This document shows, in pieces, positions 1-10,459 of a stretch of 10,459 nt of DNA. Source of the DNA: Escherichia coli (GTDB taxonomy: Bacteria > Pseudomonadota > Gammaproteobacteria > Enterobacterales > Enterobacteriaceae); the NCBI RefSeq assembly GCF_003334765.1, contig NZ_QOWT01000058.1; one strand, given 5' to 3'. Position 1 is the stretch's first letter. Each line of letters starts with the position of its first letter. The notes beneath the pieces were generated by a model, which was not told where the DNA came from, did not search any database, and saw only the letters and a program-made list of their open reading frames with translations. Both the position numbers and the translations under genes were made by a program.

Positions 1-1016
1 ACCGAGAAAGACACTGAAGTTCAAAACACCGAAAGAGATAATTGAAAGGGGTGTTGCATTGACAGATTGAATCTACAACAGCGTATTTTGCACAGGAGTC
101 GCTGAAAAATACGCGTTAATCGAACAATGGCGACAACAATTTCCCATTGAAGCGATGTGTCAGGTATTTGGTGTATCCAGGAGCGGTTATTACAACTGGG
201 TACAGCATGAACCCTCAGACAGAAAACAAAGTGATGAGCGGCTAAAACTGGAGATTAAGGTGGCACATATCCGCACTCGCGAAACATATGGAACCCGGCG
301 GCTCCAGACGGAGCTGGCAGAGAATGGCATCATCGTTGGTCGTGACCGACTGGCACGTCTTCGTAAGGAGCTAAGGCTACGCTGTAAGCAGAAACGCAAG
401 TTCAGAGCGACTACGAACTCGAACCACAATCTGCCAGTTGCGCCAAATCTGCTGAACCAGACGTTCGCTCCTACAGCACCAAATCAGGTCTGGGTGGCGG
501 ACCTGACGTATGTTGCCACACAGGAGGGATGGTTGTACCTCGCTGGCATCAAAGATGTTTATACGTGCGAAATTGTCGGCTACGCCATGGGAGAGCGCAT
601 GACAAAAGAGCTGACAGGTAAAGCCCTGTTTATGGCGCTCAGGAGCCAGCGCCCACCTGCCGGGCTAATCCACCACTCTGATCGAGGTTCACAGTACTGC
701 GCATACGATTACCGGGTCATACAGGAGCAGTTTGGTCTGAAAACATCAATGTCGCGTAAAGGTAACTGTTACGACAACGCTCCGATGGAAAGCTTCTGGG
801 GAACGCTGAAAAATGAGAGCCTGAGCCACTATCGTTTTAATAACCGGGATGAAGCCATCTCAGTAATACGGGAATACATTGAGATTTTCTACAATCGTCA
901 GCGTCGTCACTCTCGTCTGGGGAATATCTCCCCGGCAGCCTTCAGGGAAAAATATCATCAGATGGCTGCTTAAAAAAAGAACAAATGGTAGTGTCCGCTA
1001 TTGCCAGTACACCTCA
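1..1016 (+). mobile_element. IS3-family insertion sequence (possibly IS600-like), 3' ~1 kb; left end lies outside the window
   Basis: OrfB frame is open from 71 and contains the 272-aa ORF 155..973. An OrfA-like C-terminal tail (QIESTTAYFAQESLKNTR, 63..119) sits in the frame that is -1-shifted relative to OrfB, the usual IS3-family arrangement. The proposed right end CCAGTACACCTCA (1004..1016) ends in CA; its reverse complement TGAGGTGTACTGGCAATAGCGGACAC resembles IS3-type terminal repeats as I recall them. The right boundary is an estimate. Confidence 0.7.
155..973 (+). CDS. IS3-family transposase OrfB (DDE integrase-core domain)
   Basis: 272-aa ORF with typical IS3 OrfB features: N-terminal VSRSGYY motif, WLYLA...D, HSDRGSQY and CYDNAPMESFWGTLK motifs. 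In IS3 elements this frame is normally expressed as an OrfAB fusion by -1 frameshifting; the frame is open upstream to 71. The specific IS name is from memory only. Confidence 0.9.
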   Translation: MCQVFGVSRSGYYNWVQHEPSDRKQSDERLKLEIKVAHIRTRETYGTRRLQTELAENGIIVGRDRLARLRKELRLRCKQKRKFRATTNSNHNLPVAPNLLNQTFAPTAPNQVWVADLTYVATQEGWLYLAGIKDVYTCEIVGYAMGERMTKELTGKALFMALRSQRPPAGLIHHSDRGSQYCAYDYRVIQEQFGLKTSMSRKGNCYDNAPMESFWGTLKNESLSHYRFNNRDEAISVIREYIEIFYNRQRRHSRLGNISPAAFREKYHQMAA

Positions 1017-1447
1017 CGCTTCCAGTCTTCGCGGTCGTTGTCGATAACTTCTTTTTTTGCCCAGCGATGGATGCTGCCGTCAATGTTTCCGGCATCCACA
1101 TCACTAGGCCAGAGAGCGTAGGCCAGTTCGTCATCCAGTGTTTTCCATGTCTGCTTGTATTCGCGATGAATGGCAGCAATGACCGGGCTGATTTTTCCTG
1201 TTGAATTTTCAGTGTACTGTTGATTGGCTCTGGCGCGGGCGAGATCAACAACAGACGTGTATTTTCCGGTTTCCTTGCGTTCACCTTCGCGACGTTTTTT
1301 CCAGATGCGCATCTCTGCCTGAATTTCGGGCCATTTAGCACCAGGAATACATTTATGCTTAACCCACCCAATGGCGTGCAACTTAAGCTCCGGATACGGG
1401 TTATTCCCCTCTGAACAGGCGCGTAAGGACTGGCAAAACGCCCGCAA
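998..1447 (-). CDS. hypothetical protein (phage-like), 3' end runs into the IS3-family element
   Basis: 149-codon ORF with protein-like composition, but the first codon is TTG and the first ATG is 46 codons in. The last 5 codons plus stop (998..1016) lie inside the proposed IS terminal sequence, so the native C-terminus may have been replaced by the insertion. A second minus-strand frame (970..1464) has low-complexity translation and is considered spurious. Confidence 0.3.
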   Translation of the reverse strand: MRAFCQSLRACSEGNNPYPELKLHAIGWVKHKCIPGAKWPEIQAEMRIWKKRREGERKETGKYTSVVDLARARANQQYTENSTGKISPVIAAIHREYKQTWKTLDDELAYALWPSDVDAGNIDGSIHRWAKKEVIDNDREDWKREVYWQ

Positions 1448-1466
1448 AAAACTCTCGAGGGCAAAG

Positions 1467-1637
1467 GTGAAGAAACCTGCTGTGGTTGATCCGGACCTTA
1501 TCTGGTCATCACCTGACGGAGAAATACGTCGCTACGACAGTCGCCTAAACATAATCTGTCGCGAGTGCCGGAAGAGCGAAGTTATGCAGCGCATACTGGC
1601 TTTCTATCAGGGTAATTTTCAGGACGTGGCGCAGTGA
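1467..1637 (+). CDS. small hypothetical ORF, translationally coupled (GTGA overlap) to the downstream methyltransferase-like gene
   Basis: The track ORF starts at 1371, but that would overlap the divergent minus-strand ORF. GTG at 1467 is preceded by GAGGG (1457..1461). Its stop TGA (1635..1637) overlaps the GTG start at 1634 of the next ORF. No recognised domain. Confidence 0.25.
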   Translation: MKKPAVVDPDLIWSSPDGEIRRYDSRLNIICRECRKSEVMQRILAFYQGNFQDVAQ

Positions 1638-2080
1638 GTGCACCGGCAACCATTCTTGATATGTGCTGTGGCAGCCGCATGTTCTGGTTCGATAAGTCTG
1701 ACGAACGGGCGATATTCAGCGATATCAGAAAAGAAGGATACACATTACGCAATGGGAGACGCTTGATTATCAGCCCTGACATTATCGCAGATTTTCGTGC
1801 ATTATCATTTGCAGACGCATCTTTTTCGATGGTTGTATTAGACCCTCCGCATCTTGAGAGTGTTGGTGATAACGCCTGGATGGGAAAGAAATATGGACGG
1901 CTGAATAAAGATGCCTGGCGTGATGATTCGCGACAGAGATTTAAAGAAGCCTTTCGGGTGTTGAGGCCGCACGGCGTTCTGATTTTTTAATGGAATGAAA
2001 CGCAAATACCGGTAAGCCAGATTCTGGCACTGACAGACAGAAAACCTGTTATCTGTCAACGAACAGGGAAAAAACGATAA
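1634..2080 (+). pseudogene. SAM-dependent (DNA) methyltransferase-like gene interrupted by an in-frame TAA at 1988..1990
   Basis: Translation contains a motif-I-like DMCCGSR and a motif-IV-like VVLDPPH (DPPY/NPPY class), then LRPHGVLIF before the TAA. The same frame stays open for 29 more codons (WNETQIPVSQILALTDRKPVICQRTGKKR) to TAA 2078..2080. Assignment to the N6-adenine/N4-cytosine methyltransferase class is by motif only. Confidence 0.45.
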
Positions 2081-2252
2081 AACCCACTGGATTATTTTTA
2101 TGAAAGAGGCATCCAGTGAGTAGATTCGTAAGGCTACAGATACGTATATCTGAATAATTAAATTCAGTTCTGTAAATAAAATTTAATCCTTAACCGGATG
2201 GATTTCTGCACCCTCAGAACATCAGGAGGCCGCCCGAAAGGGCGGTAGTGAA

Positions 2253-2363
2253 ATGCGAAAGTTCAAAATTATTATTGAAACGGGAATAGCTGGTGGAGAT
2301 TTTGAGGATGTATTCGAAGTGGACGATGACGCAACACCTGAGGAAATTCATGACGGAGCATAA
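2253..2363 (+). CDS. small acidic hypothetical ORF (36 aa)
   Basis: ATG 2253 to TAA 2361..2363, translation MRKFKIIIETGIAGGDFEDVFEVDDDATPEEIHDGA. AGGAGG lies at 2224..2229, separated from the ATG by a GAAA-capped hairpin (2229..2246). Below the ORF-track length cutoff and unverified. Confidence 0.2.
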   Translation: MRKFKIIIETGIAGGDFEDVFEVDDDATPEEIHDGA

Positions 2364-2412
2364 GAAATTTTCTTTAACTACTGCAATTACTCATACCACG
2401 AAATAAAAGACG

Positions 2413-2604
2413 ATGAGGAAGAACAAAGTGGCTGATTTTTGTTCAGCTAAATATAACATCAGTTTTGAAGAGCGGGATGAACTATTAATGGACTATGGTG
2501 AGTTACGCGGTGGAAGTGCTGCTGATGTCGAATCCTAGCGTGATGACTATGAAGCGGGAAAAACTCCGGTCGAAGCATATTGTGATGAGTGGGGCGATGA
2601 ATGA
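2413..2604 (+). pseudogene. short ORF interrupted by in-frame TAG (2536..2538); probable decayed prophage gene
   Basis: ATG 2413, 41 codons, TAG, then 21 more open codons to TGA 2602..2604. The alternative frame is also open, which fits decayed coding DNA. Confidence 0.2.
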
Positions 2605-2888
2605 GCGAGATTAATTATCAGGAAGGGCATGAAACGGCGGGGCAAGCAAAACCAGTGGCATGGCGATATCGCTACGTGAAAAAAGGCGTTACGGACTTTC
2701 AGGGGAAGTAGTGGTCTGGTGACTGGAAATATGTACCGAAAAAAGAGGATTGTAACGACAGGCCGAACTATCAAATTCAGGCCTTATTCACTGCCTCACC
2801 AGTCCCAGTTACATCAGAAGAACTGGTTAAAGCTGTGCACTTTTATGAACAACTAAAACGCGAAAATCCACCAACATCCGGCAACTAG
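2601..2888 (+). pseudogene. short ORF interrupted by in-frame TAG (2709..2711); probable decayed prophage gene
   Basis: ATG 2601 overlaps the upstream stop (ATGA). 36 codons, TAG, then 58 further open codons (WSGDWKYVPKKEDCNDRPNYQIQALFTASPVPVTSEELVKAVHFYEQLKRENPPTSGN) to TAG 2886..2888. Confidence 0.25.
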
Positions 2889-3142
2889 ATTAATGGATTA
2901 ACTATGTCGGTTAAACGACCAGCCAACTGAAAAAGCGGAAACCTGATTACAGGTTGCCAGATAAGGCAATGAGCTACCTGGCGCGGAACGGACTGATAAG
3001 TATGGGGAATGTTTTACGATGAACCTTTAGACTAAAGAGTTTGTAACGCTATGTAAGTGATTTTTTCTGGTTTAGATATTTATATGTCCGGCCAAATTGA
3101 GGTGTGTTTAAATGTAATTGCACATTGATTGTAGGAGGAATA

Positions 3143-3322
3143 ATGAAAAACGCATTGCAGTTTTTGTTTGTTGCGTTCTGGTTGTTCGCATCATGTATGC
3201 CCATCATCTTCACAGCAAGGTATATGGAAAAAGTTGATGTTTTGATATTAATATTTGGATATATAAATGCCCTTTTTTTAGGGGTGTTCATGGCGGTCAT
3301 GTGCATTGAATACTGGCGGTAA
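3143..3322 (+). CDS. small predicted membrane protein (59 aa, two hydrophobic helices) in an AT-rich islet
   Basis: Strong Shine-Dalgarno AGGAGG (3133..3138) 4 nt before ATG 3143. Translation MKNALQFLFVAFWLFASCMPIIFTARYMEKVDVLILIFGYINALFLGVFMAVMCIEYWR has two hydrophobic segments. Local GC content is low. The track lists a longer 3104 start with no ribosome-binding site. Confidence 0.4.
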   Translation: MKNALQFLFVAFWLFASCMPIIFTARYMEKVDVLILIFGYINALFLGVFMAVMCIEYWR

Positions 3323-3508
3323 ATACAGCGAACTCCATTGGTTTAGTTGGATATTTACTGTGCTGGACAAAAACGGTTTGCGGGGAAATCTTAGTTAAGT
3401 AGAATGACTGCGGGTGCTTGAGGCTATCTGCCTCGGGCATGGACACCAACGGCAGATAGAGAAAAGCCCCAGTTAACATTACGCGTCCTGCAAGACGCTT
3501 AACATTAA

Positions 3509-3590
3509 TCTGAGGCCAATTTCATGCTAGACACATGTAGGTTAGCCTCTTACGTGCCGAAAGGCACGGAGAAGCAGGCTATTGTTAACA
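3509..3590 (+). other. degenerate relE-3'end/hok-leader-like segment (paralogous remnant of the hokD translation-initiation region), no intact toxin ORF
   Basis: 3568..3582 GGAGAAGCAGGCTAT is identical to the hokD ribosome-binding site and start region at 6857..6871. The upstream hairpin CGTGCC-GAAA-GGCACG (3553..3568) parallels CACC-GAA-GGTG (6824..6834) with compensatory changes. 3509..3537 weakly resembles 6794..6818. The start position reads ATT and only 6 codons follow before TAA. Confidence 0.4.
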
Positions 3591-3627
3591 CCAAGCTGTA
3601 ATGTCCCCTTTGAACCATTCTAAAATG

Positions 3628-3654
3628 TCCCCAGACAATTCTCTGGGGGATTTT
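3628..3654 (+). other. stem-loop CCCCAGA-caattc-TCTGGGG plus T-run directly upstream of the transposase start
   Basis: 7-bp perfect stem followed by GATTTTTC, ending 2 nt before ATG 3657. It is terminator-like; it may insulate the transposase gene from read-in transcription or be part of the IS end. Confidence 0.4.
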
Positions 3655-3656
3655 TC

Positions 3657-4970
3657 ATGATCAAAGAGACTGTTACGATGAGTCATAAGGAACTCCACCG
3701 ACTTCAGATTATTCAGGAACAAGCTGCGGCACGCATTGGCATTTCTATTCGGCAGGTTAAACGTCTGGTGCAACGGTATAGAAATGAAGGGCCTTCTGGT
3801 CTGGTTTCCCACCGACGTGGAAAGCGTCCTAATAATTCCTTTTCTACTGAATTCAGAGCAACAGTAATTTCACTCCTCAAAGGCCGTTACGCTGATTTTG
3901 GACCTACGTTTGCGTGCGAAAAATTGCGCGAGATACACGGTTTATCTTTATCCGTTGAAACTCTCAGAAAGTGGATGATAGAAGAGGGGTTATGGCGTGA
4001 ACGCCGTCGTAAAATTGCCCGTATATATCAACGCCGCATGCGACGACCATCTTACGGTGAACTGATCCAGATTGATGGCTCACCTCATGACTGGTTTGAA
4101 AATCGAGGCCCCAGATGTACACTGATCGTTTTCATTGATGATGCCACCAGTGCGTTGATGGCGTTGCGTTTTGTGCCTGCTGAAACAACCCGGGCTTACA
4201 TGGAAACCCTCCGGGGTTACCTTAATGATCATGGCGTACCGCTCGCTCTCTACTCTGATAGACACAGTATATTCAGGGTAAATAACCCAGAGCGGGAAGG
4301 TGAGCTGACCCAGTTCACTCGTGCGATAAAGACACTGGGCATCGAGCCAATCCATGCCAACAGCCCGCAGGCAAAAGGGCGGGTAGAGCGCGCCAATCAG
4401 ACACTACAGGACAGGCTGGTCAAAGAAATGCGGCTTCAGAATATCAGTGATATTGAAACAGCAAATGCATGGTTGCCGACCTTTATTGAAGCCTATAACA
4501 ACCGGTTCGCTACGTCGCCTCGTACTACTGATAATGCTCATCTTGATGTGCACCATTCTGAAGAGGAACTGGGTTATATCTTCAGCCTACAGGCGAAGCG
4601 CGTTCTGTCTAAAAATCTCACTTTCCAGTACAAAAGCAGTGCGTTTCAGGTACGCAGTGAGGGCCGGGGATATCGACTTAGGCATTCGGTTGTTACTGTA
4701 TGCGAGAACTTTGACGGTGAAATTAACGTTCTGTATGACGGGAAAGCGCTGGGCTGGGAAAAGTATGTTGATGGCCCGGAGCCTATACCACTGGATGATG
4801 AAAAGAGTGTCCATGAACGAGTGGATAATGCCCGTATTGATTTACGCTCAAAATACTATGTTAAACCTAAAGCTGACCATCCCTGGCTTACGCGCCGAAC
4901 GCAAAGTCATCAGCAAGTTAAGCCCCCGAAGTTACCTAAAAAGAAGCCTGATCCCGATAAAAAAGATTGA
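3657..4970 (+). CDS. DDE transposase with N-terminal helix-turn-helix and integrase-core domain (ISNCY/IS1202-group or IS481-like)
   Basis: 437-aa ORF. The N-terminus (RIGISIRQVKRLVQRYRNEG) looks like a helix-turn-helix. Candidate catalytic residues are D in IQIDGSPHDW, D in ALYSDRHSIF and E in KGRVERANQTL. The basic lysine/proline-rich C-terminus is typical of transposases. GGGGGA precedes the ATG by 7 nt. Family assignment is from memory. Confidence 0.85.
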   Translation: MIKETVTMSHKELHRLQIIQEQAAARIGISIRQVKRLVQRYRNEGPSGLVSHRRGKRPNNSFSTEFRATVISLLKGRYADFGPTFACEKLREIHGLSLSVETLRKWMIEEGLWRERRRKIARIYQRRMRRPSYGELIQIDGSPHDWFENRGPRCTLIVFIDDATSALMALRFVPAETTRAYMETLRGYLNDHGVPLALYSDRHSIFRVNNPEREGELTQFTRAIKTLGIEPIHANSPQAKGRVERANQTLQDRLVKEMRLQNISDIETANAWLPTFIEAYNNRFATSPRTTDNAHLDVHHSEEELGYIFSLQAKRVLSKNLTFQYKSSAFQVRSEGRGYRLRHSVVTVCENFDGEINVLYDGKALGWEKYVDGPEPIPLDDEKSVHERVDNARIDLRSKYYVKPKADHPWLTRRTQSHQQVKPPKLPKKKPDPDKKD

Positions 4971-5366
4971 AACCAAGATCGATTCGGTTGAGTGCATATC
5001 CATTCATAGGGTAGATTCTTAAGTCGCGTTTCTGGTGTTCATTTTCGGGTGGTTTGTTACTTGTTTTACCGGGGATATGCCAGAAACGCGCTGAGTCAGT
5101 CTGGGCGGTGCGCGTAATGAGGCGTTATGGTAAATAGCCTATGCTAATGTCCGCTAAGAGCAAGAAGCGGAAGTTGGCAGTTTTGTGGACTGTCCCCACA
5201 AAAGTGACTACAGAAATAGTTGCAATTCATAATTGATCATGGGTTGTCAGTTAAACTCGTGGCGATTTAAATAGACTAATTGGGAGTGCGTCCATTACTT
5301 ATATCTTGTAATGTTAACTATCAGAAATGATACAAAGATAATATGTCTTTAAAGAAAAGGCTGATG

Positions 5367-5392
5367 GCGAAAAGTGGCCCGATGAGGGCCAC
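5367..5392 (-). terminator. rho-independent terminator of flxA
   Basis: Hairpin GTGGCCC-gatga-GGGCCAC (5374..5392). On the minus strand it is followed by TTTTCGCC, 14 nt downstream of the flxA stop. Confidence 0.5.
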
Positions 5393-5406
5393 AATACGGC
5401 TGTCAC

Positions 5407-5739
5407 TTAGACGTAAATATCAATGGTGCCAGCGGTATTTGTATCGTCTTTTTTCTCTTCTTTTTTATCAGGCTGAACTGTCGCGTCTTCATTCTTTTTC
5501 TCTGCCTGCTGCCTTAACAACTGCTCCAGTTGAGCCCAGAGGCTTTCAATTTGCTTCTGTACCAATGCAGCCATTTCTTTTTTCTGCTGTGTCGTCATCC
5601 CCTCTTCCGATGAGATTTTCCCAAGCTTTTCAGTCAGCACCTGAATTTGTCTTGTGATTTTGGCTATTTCTGATGTTCCTTCCGGGGCGGAGTTGTTTGA
5701 AATAACGGTTGAGGTATTTCCCTGAATTGTGACAGACAT
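5407..5739 (-). CDS. flxA: FlxA (FliA-regulated prophage protein)
   Basis: 110-aa ORF (MSVTIQGNTSTVISNNSAPEG...QQKKEMAALVQKQIESLWAQLEQLL...) recognised from memory as E. coli FlxA. GGAG lies 7 nt upstream of the ATG on the minus strand, and a sigma-28 promoter lies just upstream. Confidence 0.85.
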   Translation of the reverse strand: MSVTIQGNTSTVISNNSAPEGTSEIAKITRQIQVLTEKLGKISSEEGMTTQQKKEMAALVQKQIESLWAQLEQLLRQQAEKKNEDATVQPDKKEEKKDDTNTAGTIDIYV

Positions 5740-5762
5740 AGATTTCTCCTTTTAAAAAAGCA

Positions 5763-5789
5763 CTATCGGCATGCACAAAAAAATCTTTA
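5763..5789 (-). promoter_or_regulatory. sigma-28 (FliA) promoter for flxA
   Basis: Minus strand reads TAAAGATT-N11-GCCGATAG against the class-3 flagellar consensus TAAAGTTT-N11-GCCGATAA (14/16). The -10 element ends about 24 nt upstream of the flxA ATG. Confidence 0.6.
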
Positions 5790-5941
5790 ATCGTATTTCT
5801 TGTGTCATTAATTGTTTGATGTTCAGATTGTTTTCCTCGCGGGCTGGCGCGCCTCAGAAAGTAAAGCTTGTTGACAGGGGTAAACGTTCGGCAATAATTT
5901 TCTGCCGCATGCGGGTGTTGCATAAAACGTGTTACGTTCCT

Positions 5942-6247
5942 TTATCGACAGGTCAGGTCACCGCTCACCCGCCGACGAGAAAGCAACACTGACATGCTAA
6001 AGCAAAAAATAGATGAATAAGTTGAGTTGTGCATATGTAGCCTGACCGTCACAAAGTATATGGTGTCTGTACCAGTAAGATGATGGCCGGACTCTTTAAA
6101 AACGAGCTGACCTGCACAATACAGGATGGACTTAGCAATGGCTGCTCCTGGCACAAAGCGGACAGTGATCACCGTTCTTACGACTACTTTCTGACTTCCT
6201 TCGTGACTTGCCCTAAGCATGTTGTAGTGCGATACTTGTAATGACAT
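5942..6247 (-). CDS. ydfV: YdfV-like hypothetical ORF (doubtful coding status)
   Basis: 101-codon ORF at the position where K-12 annotates ydfV, as I recall. Its ATG (6245..6247) lies inside the relBE operator repeats and the translation is S/T/C-rich and poorly protein-like, so it is kept at low confidence. Confidence 0.4.
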   Translation of the reverse strand: MSLQVSHYNMLRASHEGSQKVVVRTVITVRFVPGAAIAKSILYCAGQLVFKESGHHLTGTDTIYFVTVRLHMHNSTYSSIFCFSMSVLLSRRRVSGDLTCR

Positions 6248-6259
6248 TTGTAATTACAA
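6208..6259 (+). promoter_or_regulatory. relBE promoter and operator (relO)
   Basis: -35 TTGCCC (6208..6213), 17-nt spacer, -10 GATACT (6231..6236). TTGTAAT repeats at 6236..6242 and 6248..6254, and the palindrome TTGTAATTACAA (6248..6259), lie between the promoter and the relB ATG at 6272. This is the classic RelB-RelE autoregulation site. Confidence 0.65.
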
Positions 6260-6271
6260 GAGGTGTAAGAC

Positions 6272-6511
6272 ATGGGTAGCATTAACCTGCGTATTGACGA
6301 TGAACTTAAAGCGCGTTCTTACGCCGCGCTTGAAAAAATGGGTGTAACTCCTTCTGAAGCGCTTCGTCTCATGCTCGAGTATATCGCTGACAATGAACGC
6401 TTGCCGTTCAAACAGACACTCCTGAGTGATGAAGATGCTGAACTTGTGGAGATAGTGAAAGAACGGCTTCGTAATCCTAAGCCAGTACGTGTGACGCTGG
6501 ATGAACTCTGA
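6272..6511 (+). CDS. relB: RelB antitoxin
   Basis: 79-aa ORF MGSINLRIDDELKARSYAALEKMGVTPSEALRLMLEYIADNERLPFKQTLLSDEDAELVEIVKERLRNPKPVRVTLDEL, near-identical to E. coli RelB from memory. Its stop overlaps the relE start (TGATG). Confidence 0.93.
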   Translation: MGSINLRIDDELKARSYAALEKMGVTPSEALRLMLEYIADNERLPFKQTLLSDEDAELVEIVKERLRNPKPVRVTLDEL

Positions 6512-6798
6512 TGGCGTATTTTCTGGATTTTGACGAGCGGGCACTAAAGGAATGGCGAAAGCTGGGCTCGACGGTACGTGAACAGTTGAAAAAGAAGCTG
6601 GTTGAAGTACTTGAGTCACCCCGGATTGAAGCAAACAAGCTCCGTGGTATGCCTGATTGTTACAAGATTAAGCTCCGGTCTTCAGGCTATCGCCTTGTAT
6701 ACCAGGTTATAGACGAGAAAGTTGTCGTTTTCGTGATTTCTGTTGGGAAAAGAGAACGCTCGGAAGTATATAGCGAGGCGGTCAAACGCATTCTCTGA
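6511..6798 (+). CDS. relE: RelE mRNA interferase toxin
   Basis: 95-aa ORF MAYFLDFDERALKEWRKLGSTVREQLKKKLVEVLESPRIEANKLRGMPDCYKIKLRSSGYRLVYQVIDEKVVVFVISVGKRERSEVYSEAVKRIL, recognised as RelE. It is translationally coupled to relB. Confidence 0.93.
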   Translation: MAYFLDFDERALKEWRKLGSTVREQLKKKLVEVLESPRIEANKLRGMPDCYKIKLRSSGYRLVYQVIDEKVVVFVISVGKRERSEVYSEAVKRIL

Positions 6799-6869
6799 AC
6801 CAAAGCATGACATCTCTGTTTCGCACCGAAGGTGACACTTCTGCTTTGCGTTGACAGGAGAAGCAGGCT

Positions 6870-7025
6870 ATGAAGCAGCAAAAGGCGATGTTAATCGCCC
6901 TGATCGTCATCTGTTTAACCGTCATAGTGACGGCACTGGTAACGAGGAAAGACCTCTGCGAGGTACGAATCCGAACCGGCCAGACGGAGGTCGCTGTCTT
7001 CACAGCTTACGAACCTGAGGAGTAA
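6870..7025 (+). CDS. hokD: HokD (RelF) Hok-family type I membrane toxin
   Basis: 51-aa ORF MKQQKAMLIALIVICLTVIVTALVTRKDLCEVRIRTGQTEVAVFTAYEPEE, not in the ORF track because it is short. It has a ribosome-binding site GGAG at 6857..6860. The Hok family signature is a transmembrane helix followed by LCE. Confidence 0.9.
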   Translation: MKQQKAMLIALIVICLTVIVTALVTRKDLCEVRIRTGQTEVAVFTAYEPEE

Positions 7026-7083
7026 GAGACCCGGCGGGGGAGAAATCCCTCGCCACCTCTGATGTGGCAGGCATCCTCAACGC

Positions 7084-7115
7084 ACCCGCACTTAACCCGC
7101 TTCGGCGGGTTTTTG
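7084..7115 (+). terminator. rho-independent terminator after the relB-relE-hokD operon
   Basis: Hairpin CCCGC-ttcg-GCGGG (7086..7099) followed by TTTTTGTTTTTATTTT (7100..7115). Confidence 0.6.
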
Positions 7116-7241
7116 TTTTTATTTTCAACGCGTTTGAAGTTCTGGACGGTGCCGGAATAGAATCAAAAATACTTAAGTAGCGCGCAGGGATAAGAGGGAT
7201 GGTCCCTTAAAGGGGAGAGCTAATTATCCGGAAGGATTCTG

Positions 7242-7493
7242 ATGATGAACATCGAAGAACTGCGTAAAATTTTTTGTGAAGATGGCCTCTATGCTGTGTG
7301 CGTTGAAAATGGAAATCTTGTTAGTCATTACCGCATTATGTGTTTGCGAAAGAATGGGGCTGCGTTAATTAATTTTGTGGATGCTCGGGTCACGGACGGA
7401 TTTATCTTGCGCGAAGGTGAGTTTGTCACTTCATTACAGGCATTGAAAGAGATCGGAATAAAAGCTGGCTTTTCTGCTTTTTCAGGAGAATAA
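7242..7493 (+). CDS. rem: Rem-like prophage protein
   Basis: 83-aa ORF MMNIEELRKIFCEDGLYAVCVENGNLVSHYRIMCLRKNGAALINFVDARVTDGFILREGEF..., matching Qin prophage Rem by memory and by its position between hokD and ydfU. Confidence 0.8.
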   Translation: MMNIEELRKIFCEDGLYAVCVENGNLVSHYRIMCLRKNGAALINFVDARVTDGFILREGEFVTSLQALKEIGIKAGFSAFSGE

Positions 7494-7559
7494 ACTCATC
7501 TACAATCTTGCGCGGGGCTGAACTCCCGCTGAGTAACACCGTGCCACCGGAGAAAACCG

Positions 7560-7838
7560 ATGGCACGCAACGCAAAATATTACAATTCTGATAATTCGCC
7601 CGTTCTTGCCTGCACGCACGGGCGGTATTCTCACGCATTCAAGTCTGAATGGTTCCAGCACCCTCCATGCACTGCAGAACAGGCCGAATGGCTGATTCAT
7701 TCTTACCGCAGGCGCGGGTTCGAGGTTAAGAAAGCTCTCAGTCTCGACTATCGGCACTGGATAATCTCTGTCAGGCTGCCTTATTCCGAACGCCCACCAC
7801 GTGCGTCCCGCACTTTCCAGCAACGGATCTGGAGGTAA
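7560..7838 (+). CDS. hypothetical prophage protein (92 aa), tightly coupled to ydfU
   Basis: GGAG sits 7 nt upstream of the ATG. Its stop at 7836..7838 is followed 1 nt later by the ydfU GTG start, whose ribosome-binding site GGAGG (7831..7835) lies inside this ORF. No recognised domain. Confidence 0.45.
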   Translation: MARNAKYYNSDNSPVLACTHGRYSHAFKSEWFQHPPCTAEQAEWLIHSYRRRGFEVKKALSLDYRHWIISVRLPYSERPPRASRTFQQRIWR

Positions 7839-7839
7839 C

Positions 7840-8889
7840 GTGCGGGTATTACTTAGACCTGTTCTGGTGCCTGAGCTTGGGCTGGTGGTCCTTAAGCCGG
7901 GCCGTGAATCCATACAGATATTTCATAATCCTCGAGTGCTGGTGGAACCGGAACCAAAAAGCATGCGTAATCTGCCATCCGGAGTCGTTCCTGCCGTTCG
8001 CCAGCCGCTGGCGGAAGACAAAACATTGCTGCCGTTTTTTAGTAACGAACGGGTGATTCGTGCTGCTGGCGGCGTTGGCGCATTGTCCGACTGGCTATTA
8101 CGTCATGTTACATCCTGCCAGTGGCCTAATGGCGATTACCATCACACTGAAACAGTCATTCACCGTTATGGTACCGGCGCAATGGTGTTGTGCTGGCACT
8201 GCGACAACCAACTGCGTGACCAGACATCGGAATCACTGGAGCTGCTTGCTCAACAAAATCTGACAGCATGGGTGATTGACGTCATCCGTCACGCAATAAG
8301 CGGTACGCAGGAGCGGGAATTATCTTTGGCTGAATTATCCTGGTGGGCGGTCTGCAATCAGGTGGTGGATGCACTACCTGAGGCTGTATCGCGTCGTTCG
8401 CTGGGATTACCAGCGGAAAAAATCTGCTCGGTGTACCGCGAAAGCGACATCGTACCGGGAGAGCAGACCGCCACCAGCATATTGAAACAACGCACAAAAA
8501 ATCTTGCACCGTTGCCTTACGCCCACCAGCAACAAAAATCACCACAGGAAAAGACGGTGGTAAGCATCACCGTTGATCCAGAGTCTCCGGAATCTTTCAT
8601 GAAGCTGCCTAAACGTCGCCGCTGGGTTAAGGAGAAATACACACGTTGGGTTAAGACACAGCCGTGTGCTTGCTGCGGTATGCCAGCCGACGATCCGCAT
8701 CATCTGATTGGTCACGGGCAGGGCGGAATGGGAACAAAAGCACATGATCTCTTTGTGTTGCCTTTGTGCAGAAAGCATCACAACGAGCTGCATACGGATA
8801 CAGTGGCATTTGAAGATAAGTATGGCTCCCAACTGGAGCTGATATTTCGTTTTATCGATCGCGCGCTGGCAATTGGCGTACTGGCGTAA
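7840..8889 (+). CDS. ydfU: YdfU-like DUF968 protein (HNH-like C-terminal motif)
   Basis: The track ORF 7801..8889 is trimmed to GTG 7840, which is preceded by GGAGG, giving 349 aa. The C-terminus CACCGMPADDPHHLIGHGQGGMGTKAHDLFVLPLCRKHHNELH has a Cys/His pattern like HNH/zinc-binding nucleases. Identity is from memory. Confidence 0.8.
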   Translation: MRVLLRPVLVPELGLVVLKPGRESIQIFHNPRVLVEPEPKSMRNLPSGVVPAVRQPLAEDKTLLPFFSNERVIRAAGGVGALSDWLLRHVTSCQWPNGDYHHTETVIHRYGTGAMVLCWHCDNQLRDQTSESLELLAQQNLTAWVIDVIRHAISGTQERELSLAELSWWAVCNQVVDALPEAVSRRSLGLPAEKICSVYRESDIVPGEQTATSILKQRTKNLAPLPYAHQQQKSPQEKTVVSITVDPESPESFMKLPKRRRWVKEKYTRWVKTQPCACCGMPADDPHHLIGHGQGGMGTKAHDLFVLPLCRKHHNELHTDTVAFEDKYGSQLELIFRFIDRALAIGVLA

Positions 8890-8902
8890 GTGGAGAACGA
8901 GC

Positions 8903-9655
8903 ATGAACCTTGAAGCCTTACCAAAATATTACTCCCCAAAATCTCCAAAATTGAGCGATGACGCTCCAGCGACAGGCACCGGTTGTTTAACAATTACGGA
9001 TGTAATGGCAGCGCAGGGGATGGTGCAGTCGAAAGCACCACTTGGGTTGGCCTTATTTCTGGCAAAAGTTGGTGTTCAGGACCCTCAGTTTGCGATTGAA
9101 GGCCTGCTAAATTACGCGATGGCACTGGATAACCCGACATTGAACAAATTGAGTGAAGAAATCCGGTTACAGATTATTCCTTACCTCGTGAGTTTTGCCT
9201 TTGCTGATTACTCCAGGTCTGCGGCAAGTAAGGCTCGCTGTGAGCATTGTTCAGGTACGGGATTTTATAATGTATTGCGCGAAGTGGTGAAACACTACAG
9301 ACGCGGGGAATCTGTAATCAAGGAAGAATGGGTGAAGGAACTATGTCAGCATTGCCATGGTAAGGGCGAAGCCAGCACAGCGTGCAGAGGGTGTAAGGGT
9401 AAAGGGATTGTTCTGGATGAAAAAAGAACCCGGTTTCATGGCGTACCGGTATATAAGATTTGTGGGCGTTGTAATGGAAACCGGTTTAGTCGTTTACCGA
9501 CCACGCTGGCACGACGTCATGTCCAGAAGCTGGTACCAGACCTGACCGATTATCAGTGGTATAAGGGGTATGCGGACGTCATTGGTAAACTGGTAACAAA
9601 GTGCTGGCAGGAAGAAGCATACGCGGAAGCGCAATTGAGGAAGGTGACGAGATAA
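8903..9655 (+). CDS. quuQ: Q-family late-gene antiterminator (QuuQ-like)
   Basis: 250 aa from ATG 8903, which has GGAG 6 nt upstream; the track ORF starts 10 codons earlier. Contains several CxxC pairs (CEHCSGTG, CQHCHGKG, CRGCKGKG, CGRCNGN) and is followed by a promoter-terminator pair arranged like lambdoid P_R'-tR'. Confidence 0.85.
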   Translation: MNLEALPKYYSPKSPKLSDDAPATGTGCLTITDVMAAQGMVQSKAPLGLALFLAKVGVQDPQFAIEGLLNYAMALDNPTLNKLSEEIRLQIIPYLVSFAFADYSRSAASKARCEHCSGTGFYNVLREVVKHYRRGESVIKEEWVKELCQHCHGKGEASTACRGCKGKGIVLDEKRTRFHGVPVYKICGRCNGNRFSRLPTTLARRHVQKLVPDLTDYQWYKGYADVIGKLVTKCWQEEAYAEAQLRKVTR

Positions 9656-9686
9656 ATGATTTTTGCTGAAGATGGCGACATGATGT

Positions 9687-9715
9687 TTGCATTTTTCAAA
9701 AAATATGGATAAAAT
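9687..9715 (+). promoter_or_regulatory. putative late promoter (P_R'-like sigma-70 promoter) downstream of quuQ
   Basis: -35 TTGCAT (9687..9692), 17-nt spacer, -10 TAAAAT (9710..9715), beginning 32 nt after the quuQ stop. Confidence 0.5.
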
Positions 9716-9760
9716 TTTTTCAACGATGGGCTTTGTATACCCGACGTTAAGAAAAAGTAG

Positions 9761-9790
9761 AAAACCCGCTGATGAGCGGGTTTTGTGCTT
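9761..9790 (+). terminator. rho-independent terminator (tR'-like, possibly bidirectional)
   Basis: Hairpin CCCGCT-gatg-AGCGGG (9765..9780) followed by TTTTGTGCTTT. An A-run precedes it, so it could also act on the minus strand. It lies about 50-60 nt downstream of the predicted start of the putative late promoter. Confidence 0.55.
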
Positions 9791-10076
9791 TAAATGGGGC
9801 AATGGTAATGTTGAATCTCATCCCGGGACTCATGTCTGTTAACTTATTATTTAGCTGGTGACTTGGTTATTTGCCTGATGTTTAAAATGTTTTCTTCCAG
9901 TACAATGTCCCTAAACACAATGAGTCTGCTTATTATATTATTAGCAGAGCTATTACGGCCAAAGTACAGCATAAGCTTTTAAAGCCAATCAACCAGTCAT
10001 CAAGACAGACGGGGTTATTCATAAAAACTCTCCATGTGTGATCCGATGGGGCCTGAAATTAAAGCTTTAATATAGC

Positions 10077-10289
10077 TCATGAAAGGTAAACATTGGCAGC
10101 TGAAGGGCCACGCAGACCATTTATCCGGCAAAATTCCACGCGTAATCCGGTGGTAATTTCTTCTGCATCGCGGAGATTGAGCGCTGAAACATGAAGCTGG
10201 ACATCGATACGACCATCGGATGGGGTGATAAGACCCTTGCCGCTTTTGCCGTCAAAGGTTTTGACAATTCCTGTCATTTTACGGGACAA
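10077..10289 (-). CDS. cspF: cold-shock-domain protein, CspF/CspH family
   Basis: 70-aa [73 protein letters not shown] with CspA-family motifs. It is convergent with quuQ. The first codon is TTG, with AAGGA 6 nt upstream. Confidence 0.8.
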
Positions 10290-10459
10290 AAAAATTCCTT
10301 AATACTGATAACTTGGCGCACTATACACACGTTCCTGAAGAAAGCTATAGTTTTTTGATGGGGTTGAAGATGGCTGGATGTCTAAGGAAGGTGCGAATAA
10401 GCGGGGAAATACTTCTCGGCTGACTCAGTCATTTCATTTCTTCATGTTTGAGCCGATTT

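What the first reader, a model, noticed from the sequence alone, without database searches (positions are those of the whole stretch)
5740..5800. Near-consensus sigma-28 (FliA) promoter driving flxA inside the prophage
The minus strand reads TAAAGATT-N11-GCCGATAG immediately upstream of flxA, a 14/16 match to the flagellar class-3 consensus. This ties a prophage gene to the host flagellar regulon, which is known for flxA in K-12. It also gives confidence in the direction and start of flxA here.
Basis: partly seen in the sequence, partly recalled or inferred. Interest (0 to 1): 0.3.

Follow-up and report, generated by a model that had tools for sequence, protein, structure and literature searches.

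The report
Known FliA promoter of prophage flxA

Summary
The minus strand reads TAAAGATT (5789..5782), 11 nt, GCCGATAG (5770..5763), a 14/16 match to TAAAGTTT-N11-GCCGATAA. An AGGAG ribosome-binding site follows at 5750..5746, and the flxA ATG is at 5739. Such a match is expected about 0.01 times per window. It is the top hit of a FliA weight matrix built without flxA, and no random window out of 300 reaches its score.

Window 4786..10385 is 100% identical to the Qin prophage of E. coli K-12 MG1655. The same 28-mer is listed as the flxA FliA site in the ChIP-seq study of Fitzgerald et al. 2014, where flxA RNA falls from 280 to 2 in a fliA deletion. Microarray data show a 28-fold drop, and genomic SELEX gives a peak in the same ydfV/flxA spacer. 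The original description is Ide & Kutsukake 1997.

One result goes a little further. In 10 of 11 loci encoding FlxA-family proteins (30-85% identity), the best sigma-28 match of the whole locus lies 22-47 nt upstream of the gene. The loci include an Enterobacter integrase islet and chromosomal gltX/yfeR loci whose proteins cluster with Pantoea and Erwinia proteins. The promoter looks like a family-wide feature carried with the gene, not a Qin peculiarity. FlxA's function remains unknown.

The parts
5782..5789 (-). sigma-28 -35 element TAAAGATT (7/8 to TAAAGTTT; the same octamer as the flgMN promoter)
5771..5781 (-). 11-nt spacer TTTTTGTGCAT. Its sequence varies among homologous loci while its length stays at 11-12 nt.
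5763..5770 (-). sigma-28 -10 element GCCGATAG (7/8 to GCCGATAA). The core CGATA is invariant in the 9-locus alignment.
5756..5756 (-). Transcription start of flxAp as listed by RegulonDB (the capital T in the quoted promoter sequence). The evidence codes are inference only. It gives a 17-nt leader.
   Evidence: supplement S3 of PMC4183435
5746..5750 (-). Shine-Dalgarno AGGAG, 6 nt before the ATG
5407..5739 (-). flxA, 110 codons plus stop (Pfam PF14282 FlxA; phrog_11044). The protein has a Ser/Thr/Gly-rich N-terminus, a central coiled coil and a conserved C-terminal IDIYV motif. Function unknown.
5370..5392 (-). Intrinsic-terminator-like hairpin GUGGCCC-UCAUC-GGGCCAC followed by UUUU, 15 nt after the flxA stop. 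It closes a one-gene unit.
   Evidence: -18.3 kcal/mol, z = -3.1, 0 of 200 shuffles fold as well. It was not flagged by the simple scan, because only 4 U follow the stem.
5396..5877 (-). Promoter-plus-gene cassette shared at 88% identity with an Enterobacter integrase-associated islet (L003/L004). Homology starts 138 nt upstream of the ATG and ends 11 nt after the stop.

Best explanation
This is flxAp, the class-3-type flagellar promoter of the Qin-prophage gene flxA. RNA polymerase carrying FliA (sigma-28) recognises TAAAGATT-N11-GCCGATAG. It is inferred to start transcription about 7 nt downstream, at window 5756 on the minus strand, and to make a short monocistronic mRNA. That mRNA would have a 17-nt leader with AGGAG, the 110-codon flxA, and a hairpin terminator at 5392..5370. 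Expression therefore follows the host flagellar hierarchy: FlhDC activates fliA, and FliA is released when FlgM is exported. It does not follow the prophage's own lytic or lysogenic circuits. The gene sits as a self-contained, moron-like cassette in the region between the replication genes and Q. Shown by published experiments on the identical sequence: FliA binding at this site and near-total FliA dependence of flxA RNA. Shown here: the match is far above chance. Also shown here: the same promoter at the same distance precedes FlxA-family genes in other genera and other genomic contexts, so promoter and gene are inherited together. Inferred: the exact start site, termination at the hairpin, and what FlxA does. 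It is reported as dispensable for motility in the title of Ide & Kutsukake 1997.
For: Identity to K-12 Qin comes; 1,213 of 5,426 complete E. coli genomes carry the 801-bp region, and all but one of the 1,216 matching records are >=99% identical. The literature on the identical sequence is as follows. PMC4183435 Table 2 gives the exact 28-mer, a FAT score of 16, and RNA of 280 in wild type against 2 in the fliA deletion. PMC1935009 gives -28.4-fold and +8.2-fold. PMC5493296 gives a SELEX peak in the ydfV/flxA spacer. PMC9068703 shows flxA moving with flagellar genes in RNA-seq. Both deviations from consensus occur in other FliA-bound sites: the -35 TAAAGATT is the flgMN octamer, and the -10 GCCGATAG occurs at yrfF. 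For the comparative footprint, in 10 of 11 FlxA-family loci the best sigma-28 hit of the whole locus on both strands lies 22-47 nt upstream of the start codon. For the five strong loci whose upstream DNA BLAST does not align to the window (L007, L009, L012, L013, L015), the product of the chance fractions is about 1.6e-10. CGATA is invariant in alignment A2, while spacer and flanks diverge. BLAST homology to L007 stops at the Shine-Dalgarno, yet the promoter is present.
Against: No experiment was done on this strain, so everything functional is transferred from K-12, though the sequence is identical. The RegulonDB start site has inference-only evidence codes, and I could not read Ide & Kutsukake 1997 to see whether the start was mapped. 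Three of the eleven comparative loci have only weak matches: L010 at 7.3 bits, L014 at 4.1 and L016 at 8.7. Presence of fliA in the source genomes of the metagenomic loci was not checked.
Confidence: 0.96

Rival explanations
1. flxA is driven mainly by a sigma-70 promoter or by read-through from ydfV upstream on the same strand, and the sigma-28 match is incidental.
For: ydfV (5942..6247, minus strand) lies upstream with no obvious terminator between it and flxA. GATAGT inside the -10 element matches TATAAT at 4 of 6 positions.
Against: flxA RNA falls from 280 to 2 in a fliA deletion on the identical sequence. The sigma-70 scan finds no minus-strand promoter in 5200..6300. The sigma-28 motif is kept in homologous loci that have no ydfV.
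Confidence: 0.02
2. The motif is a chance match in AT-rich intergenic DNA with no function in this strain.
For: Short degenerate motifs do occur by chance. A second, weaker matrix hit exists at 1021..1048.
Against: The chance expectation is 0.01 per window, and 0 of 300 random windows reach the score. The position relative to the Shine-Dalgarno and ATG is canonical. The motif is conserved across genera and bound by FliA in vivo in K-12.
Confidence: 0.01
3. FliA binds here, but the site is a non-productive or noise-level promoter, like many of the weak intragenic FliA sites.
For: Fitzgerald et al. found many FliA sites with no change in a stable RNA. Most novel sites are not conserved between species (10.1101/188474).
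Against: flxA is among the genes with the largest FliA-dependent change in both data sets. The site is intergenic, correctly placed and conserved with the gene family.
Confidence: 0.01

Closest known systems
flxAp of E. coli K-12 (Qin prophage, b1566; RegulonDB ECK120009886; Ide & Kutsukake 1997, Gene 199:19-23)
   Same: The sequence is identical over the promoter, the gene and 5.6 kb of surrounding prophage. The 28-mer is the one published in PMC4183435 Table 2.
   Different: Nothing differs at the promoter. The host strain is not K-12: to the left of 4786 the window carries an intact ISNCY-family transposase ORF, IS600 remnants and other DNA absent from MG1655, and it ends in another insertion-sequence end.
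Canonical class-3 flagellar promoters (fliC, tar, motA, flgM, tsr; consensus TAAAGTTT-N11-GCCGATAA)
   Same: It has the same two elements, the same 11-nt spacer and the same sigma factor. The -35 octamer equals that of flgMN. Its matrix score ranks 10th-14th among the 52 in vivo sites.
   Different: It drives a gene reported as dispensable for motility, located in a prophage rather than in a flagellar or chemotaxis operon.
Non-flagellar FliA-dependent promoters (modA, ves, ynjH, yhjH/pdeH, ycgR)
   Same: It belongs to the extended FliA regulon outside the structural flagellar genes.
   Different: Its FliA dependence is much stronger than that of modA, and it lies on a mobile element.
Prophage morons (autonomous promoter-gene-terminator cassettes in lambdoid phages)
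   Same: It is a one-gene unit with its own promoter and terminator-like hairpin. It is inserted between the replication genes and Q, next to relBE and hokD. The cassette is also found in a different mobile context in Enterobacter.
   Different: The promoter depends on an alternative host sigma factor rather than on sigma-70. No fitness effect is known.

Membership tests
sigma-28 (FliA) dependent promoter | -35 TAAAGTTT-like and -10 GCCGATAA-like elements separated by 11 (+/-1) nt | tested here: met
   14/16 match with an 11-nt spacer. Top matrix hit of the window, and 0 of 300 random windows reach it.
sigma-28 (FliA) dependent promoter | Correct placement and orientation upstream of a gene with a short leader | tested here: met
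   The -10 element ends 23 nt before the ATG, with AGGAG in between, on the same strand as flxA. The distance is 22-31 nt in the strong homologous loci.
sigma-28 (FliA) dependent promoter | FliA occupancy in vivo or in vitro | not testable with these tools
   Published for the identical K-12 sequence: a ChIP-seq peak with FAT 16 (PMC4183435) and an RpoF SELEX peak (PMC5493296).
sigma-28 (FliA) dependent promoter | Transcript abundance depends on fliA | not testable with these tools
   Published for K-12: 280 to 2, and -28.4-fold / +8.2-fold.
sigma-28 (FliA) dependent promoter | Transcription start about 6-8 nt downstream of the -10 element | tested here: inconclusive
   RegulonDB lists the start at window 5756, the 7th nt after GCCGATAG, but with inference-only codes HIPP/AIPP. 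No mapped 5' end was available to me.
sigma-28 (FliA) dependent promoter | Conservation of the elements in orthologous or homologous loci | tested here: met
   In 10 of 11 FlxA-family loci the locus-wide best hit is just upstream of the gene. CGATA is invariant in A2.
Qin-type defective lambdoid prophage | Gene order flxA-ydfV-relBE-hokD-rem-ydfU-Q(ydfT)-cspF/cspB | tested here: met
   100% identity to MG1655 over 4786..10385, with the annotation transferred. The same order occurs in Escherichia phage PhiR42_1.
FlxA protein family (Pfam PF14282) | Sequence match to the family | tested here: met
   Precomputed PF14282 on all close homologues. phrog_11044 at E = 1.8e-71. The family alignment shares a coiled-coil core and a C-terminal IDIYV/I motif.

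The most novel reading that the evidence does not exclude
FlxA is not a prophage oddity. It would be an old, conserved member of the sigma-28 regulon of Enterobacterales, chromosomal between gltX and yfeR in loci whose proteins cluster with Pantoea and Erwinia proteins. Its promoter-plus-gene cassette would then have been captured by mobile elements (the Qin-type phage in E. coli and Salmonella, an integrase islet in Enterobacter). That would imply a still-unknown flagellum-linked role for this small coiled-coil protein with a disordered N-terminus, for example as a late flagellar export substrate or a filament- or motor-associated factor.
Probability: 0.4. Interest if true: 0.35.

Novelty: already known. 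Interest (0 to 1): 0.1.

Why it matters
For the scan it matters little. The promoter, its sigma factor and its regulatory consequence have been in the literature since 1997 and are in RegulonDB. The small added point is that the sigma-28 promoter travels with FlxA-family genes across genera and genomic contexts. That argues selection keeps this protein under flagellar timing, which makes FlxA a reasonable candidate for a missing minor player in flagellar biology.

Tried and rejected
1. An exact-consensus search with a 10-12 nt spacer found nothing. The site needs 2 mismatches.
2. The generic sigma-70 and terminator scan found no minus-strand sigma-70 promoter near flxA, and it missed the flxA terminator hairpin because only 4 U follow the stem. 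Folding confirmed the hairpin.
3. NCBIfam has no model for FlxA or YdfV. A PDB profile search gave only generic coiled-coil hits, so there is no structural lead on FlxA function.
4. The word-index protein search returned almost only >85% identical E. coli proteins. The exhaustive representative search was needed to reach 30-66% homologues.
5. tblastn against 50,697 phage records found flxA in a single record, PhiR42_1. flxA is therefore rare in that collection of deposited phage records.
7. I did not run the expensive genome contigs or metagenome-contig scans, because eleven loci already answered the conservation question.
8. The preprint 10.1101/188474 tested lacZ fusions of all FliA sites, but its text does not name flxA, so I do not cite it for flxA.

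Full report
**Observation**

The minus strand of the window between 5800 and 5737 reads agaaatacgat-TAAAGATT-tttttgtgcat-GCCGATAG-tgcttttttaaa-AGGAG-aaatct-ATG.
- The -35-like octamer is at 5789..5782.
- The spacer is 11 nt.
- The -10-like octamer is at 5770..5763.
- The Shine-Dalgarno is at 5750..5746.
- The ATG at 5739 opens a 110-codon ORF ending at 5407.

It is the only site in the window with three or fewer mismatches on either strand. A match with two or fewer mismatches is expected 0.01 times per window; it appeared in 1 of 200 dinucleotide-preserving shuffles.

I built a position-weight matrix from the in vivo FliA sites of Fitzgerald et al. 2014 (PMC4183435, Table 2) with flxA left out.
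- The flxA site is the best hit in the window on both strands. It scores 18.8 bits with all 51 sites, 21.2 bits with the 24 strong sites, and 22.3 bits with the spacer ignored.
- No window out of 300 Markov-1 random windows reaches that score.
- Among the 52 published sites it would rank 10th to 14th.
- Both deviations from consensus occur in other bound sites. TAAAGATT is also the flgMN -35 element, and GCCGATAG occurs at yrfF.

**What the locus is**

The 801 bp around the site are 100% identical to E. coli K-12 MG1655. They occur in 1,213 of 5,426 complete E. coli genomes, and all but one of the 1,216 matching records are at least 99% identical. Window 4786..10385 is 100% identical to MG1655. 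It carries the Qin prophage genes in their K-12 order: ydfW, flxA, ydfV, relB, relE, hokD, rem, ydfU, ydfT (Q antiterminator) and cspF.

The left part of the window is not K-12. It holds IS600 remnants, a methyltransferase and an intact ISNCY-family transposase ORF. This arrangement matches strains such as FORC 064 at 100% over 1..10385. The prophage assignment is therefore correct, although the strain is not K-12.

**Published evidence on this identical sequence**

- Fitzgerald et al. 2014 list a FliA ChIP-seq peak (fold-above-threshold 16) with the motif TAAAGATTTTTTTGTGCATGCCGATAGT assigned to flxA. Normalised flxA RNA is 280 in motile MG1655 and 2 in the fliA deletion, flagged significant.
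- They cite flxA as a "well-characterized FliA-dependent promoter" after Ide & Kutsukake 1997, Gene 199:19-23. That paper's title says the gene is dispensable for motility development.
- Zhao et al. 2007 report -28.4-fold in a fliA deletion and +8.2-fold five minutes after FliA induction. This is the largest change in their table of additional regulon members.
- Shimada et al. 2017 find an RpoF-holoenzyme SELEX peak in the ydfV/flxA spacer.
- In RNA-seq of LysR-regulator mutants, flxA moves together with flg, fli, che and tar genes.
- RegulonDB's flxAp entry, quoted in supplement S3 of Fitzgerald et al., marks the start at the T corresponding to window 5756. That is 7 nt after the -10 octamer and gives a 17-nt leader. 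Its evidence codes are inference only.

**Anatomy of the unit**

Fifteen nucleotides after the flxA stop lies the hairpin GUGGCCC-UCAUC-GGGCCAC followed by UUUU, at 5392..5370. It folds at -18.3 kcal/mol with z = -3.1, and none of 200 shuffles folds as well. Together with the promoter it delimits a one-gene transcription unit.

No sigma-70-like promoter is found on the minus strand near flxA. The near-complete loss of RNA in the fliA deletion rules out a meaningful contribution of read-through from ydfV in K-12.

**Comparative evidence (new here)**

FlxA belongs to Pfam PF14282. An exhaustive search of 1.84 billion representative proteins found 48 relatives. The full-length ones share three features:
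- a Ser/Thr/Gly-rich N-terminus;
- a coiled-coil core;
- a C-terminal IDIYV/I motif.

I fetched DNA for eleven loci spanning 30-85% protein identity. Taxon labels come from named NCBI proteins in the same 90%-identity clusters as the metagenomic query proteins, not from the contigs themselves. The genomic contexts differ:
- the Qin-type nin region in E. coli, which is also the context in the only phage record of 50,697 that carries flxA, PhiR42_1;
- an integrase/transposase islet in Enterobacter (L003-L005);
- a chromosomal position between a glutamyl-tRNA-synthetase-type gene (gltX-like) and a LysR (yfeR-like) / SBF (yfeH-like) / DNA ligase cluster, in loci whose proteins cluster with Pantoea, [Erwinia] mediterraneensis and Enterobacteriaceae bacterium C34A.

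In 10 of the 11 loci, the best sigma-28 matrix hit of the entire locus on both strands lies 22-47 nt upstream of the FlxA-like start codon. The stronger examples are:

| Locus | -35 element | Spacer | -10 element |
|---|---|---|---|
| L009 | TAAAGATT | N11 | GACGATAAT |
| L013 | TAAAGTCT | N12 | GCCGATAAC |
| L015 (Pantoea-like) | TCAAGTCG | N11 | GCCGATAAC |
| L007 | TAAATTTC | N11 | GCCGATATA |

For the five strong loci whose upstream DNA BLAST does not align to the window, the product of the chance fractions is about 1.6e-10. In a nine-locus alignment the only invariant block is CGATA of the -10 element.

BLAST homology between the window and L007 stops at the Shine-Dalgarno, yet the promoter is there. 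Homology with the Enterobacter islet covers just promoter plus gene, window 5396..5877. Three loci (L010, L014, L016) have only weak matches.

The promoter is thus a property of the gene family and moves with the gene. This supports its function independently of the K-12 literature. It also suggests that Qin carries a captured, or donated, flagellar-regulon cassette.

**Mechanism and confidence**

FliA holoenzyme binds the two elements and starts near 5756. The resulting monocistronic flxA mRNA is made only once FlhDC has switched on fliA and FlgM has been exported.
- Shown in the literature for the identical sequence: FliA binding and FliA dependence.
- Inferred: the exact start site and the termination point.
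- Unknown: FlxA's function. A PDB profile search gave only generic coiled-coil matches.

Confidence that this is a functional sigma-28 promoter of flxA is 0.96.

**Novelty and score**

Interest is 0.10. The most novel reading the evidence still allows is that FlxA is an ancestral, conserved class-3 regulon member of Enterobacterales with an undiscovered flagellar role. I rate that at probability about 0.4, with interest about 0.35 if true.

Noticed in passing
window 1021..1048, + strand: This is the second-best sigma-28 matrix hit in the window: TCCAGTCT-TCGCGGTCGTT-GTCGATAAC. It scores 18.3-19.7 bits with spacer columns and 14.7 bits without. It lies just after the IS600 transposase remnant and antisense to a pseudogene. 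The segment is absent from K-12, so it was never tested by the published ChIP-seq. It could be one of the weak intragenic or antisense FliA sites, or it could be chance.
   Followed up: partly
window 3657..4970, + strand: An intact 437-codon ORF matches the ISNCY-family transposase model NF033594 (E = 7e-137, 456 bits against a cutoff of 250). Its last 49 codons (4821..4970) are exactly the K-12 'ydfW' ORF. K-12 identity begins only at 4786, so K-12 ydfW looks like the C-terminal stump of this transposase. RefSeq annotates the same 100%-identical DNA in FORC 064 as a truncated pseudogene plus ydfW.
   Followed up: partly
window ~10386..10459: Identity to K-12 and to the best-matching genomes stops at 10385. 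The remaining about 74 nt (GGAAGGTGCGAATAAGCGGGG...) match a multi-copy element at up to 42 places per genome, with 92-95% identity in the six listed hits. From memory this resembles the terminal inverted repeat of an IS5-family element inserted after CTAA. No complete E. coli genome in the collection has this junction.
   Followed up: partly
window 5871..5898, + strand: A near-consensus sigma-70-type promoter, TTGACA-16 nt-AATAAT (11/12), points away from flxA and antisense into ydfV, toward relB. Its TTGACA lies at the upstream edge of the block shared with Enterobacter. It is about 370 nt upstream of relB, so it is not the proximal relBE promoter.
   Followed up: no
L010, L012, L015 (FlxA-family loci whose proteins cluster with [Erwinia] mediterraneensis, Enterobacteriaceae bacterium C34A and Pantoea proteins): Distant FlxA homologues sit at a conserved chromosomal position. 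They are convergent with a LysR regulator (yfeR-like), next to an SBF-family transporter (yfeH-like) and DNA ligase, with a glutamyl-tRNA-synthetase-type gene (gltX-like) upstream. This is a non-prophage home for the family.
   Followed up: partly
proteins P0131 (3361 aa) and P0147 (2729 aa): Two giant proteins carry 17 and 7 repeated stretches matching residues ~8-50 of FlxA, the N-terminal and early coiled-coil part. I did not examine them. They may be repetitive surface or coiled-coil proteins, or compositional matches.
   Followed up: no
window 5942..6247, minus strand (ydfV): YdfV (101 aa) has no NCBIfam or PHROG family. It is present next to flxA only in the Qin-type context, not in the Enterobacter or chromosomal FlxA loci.
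   Followed up: no
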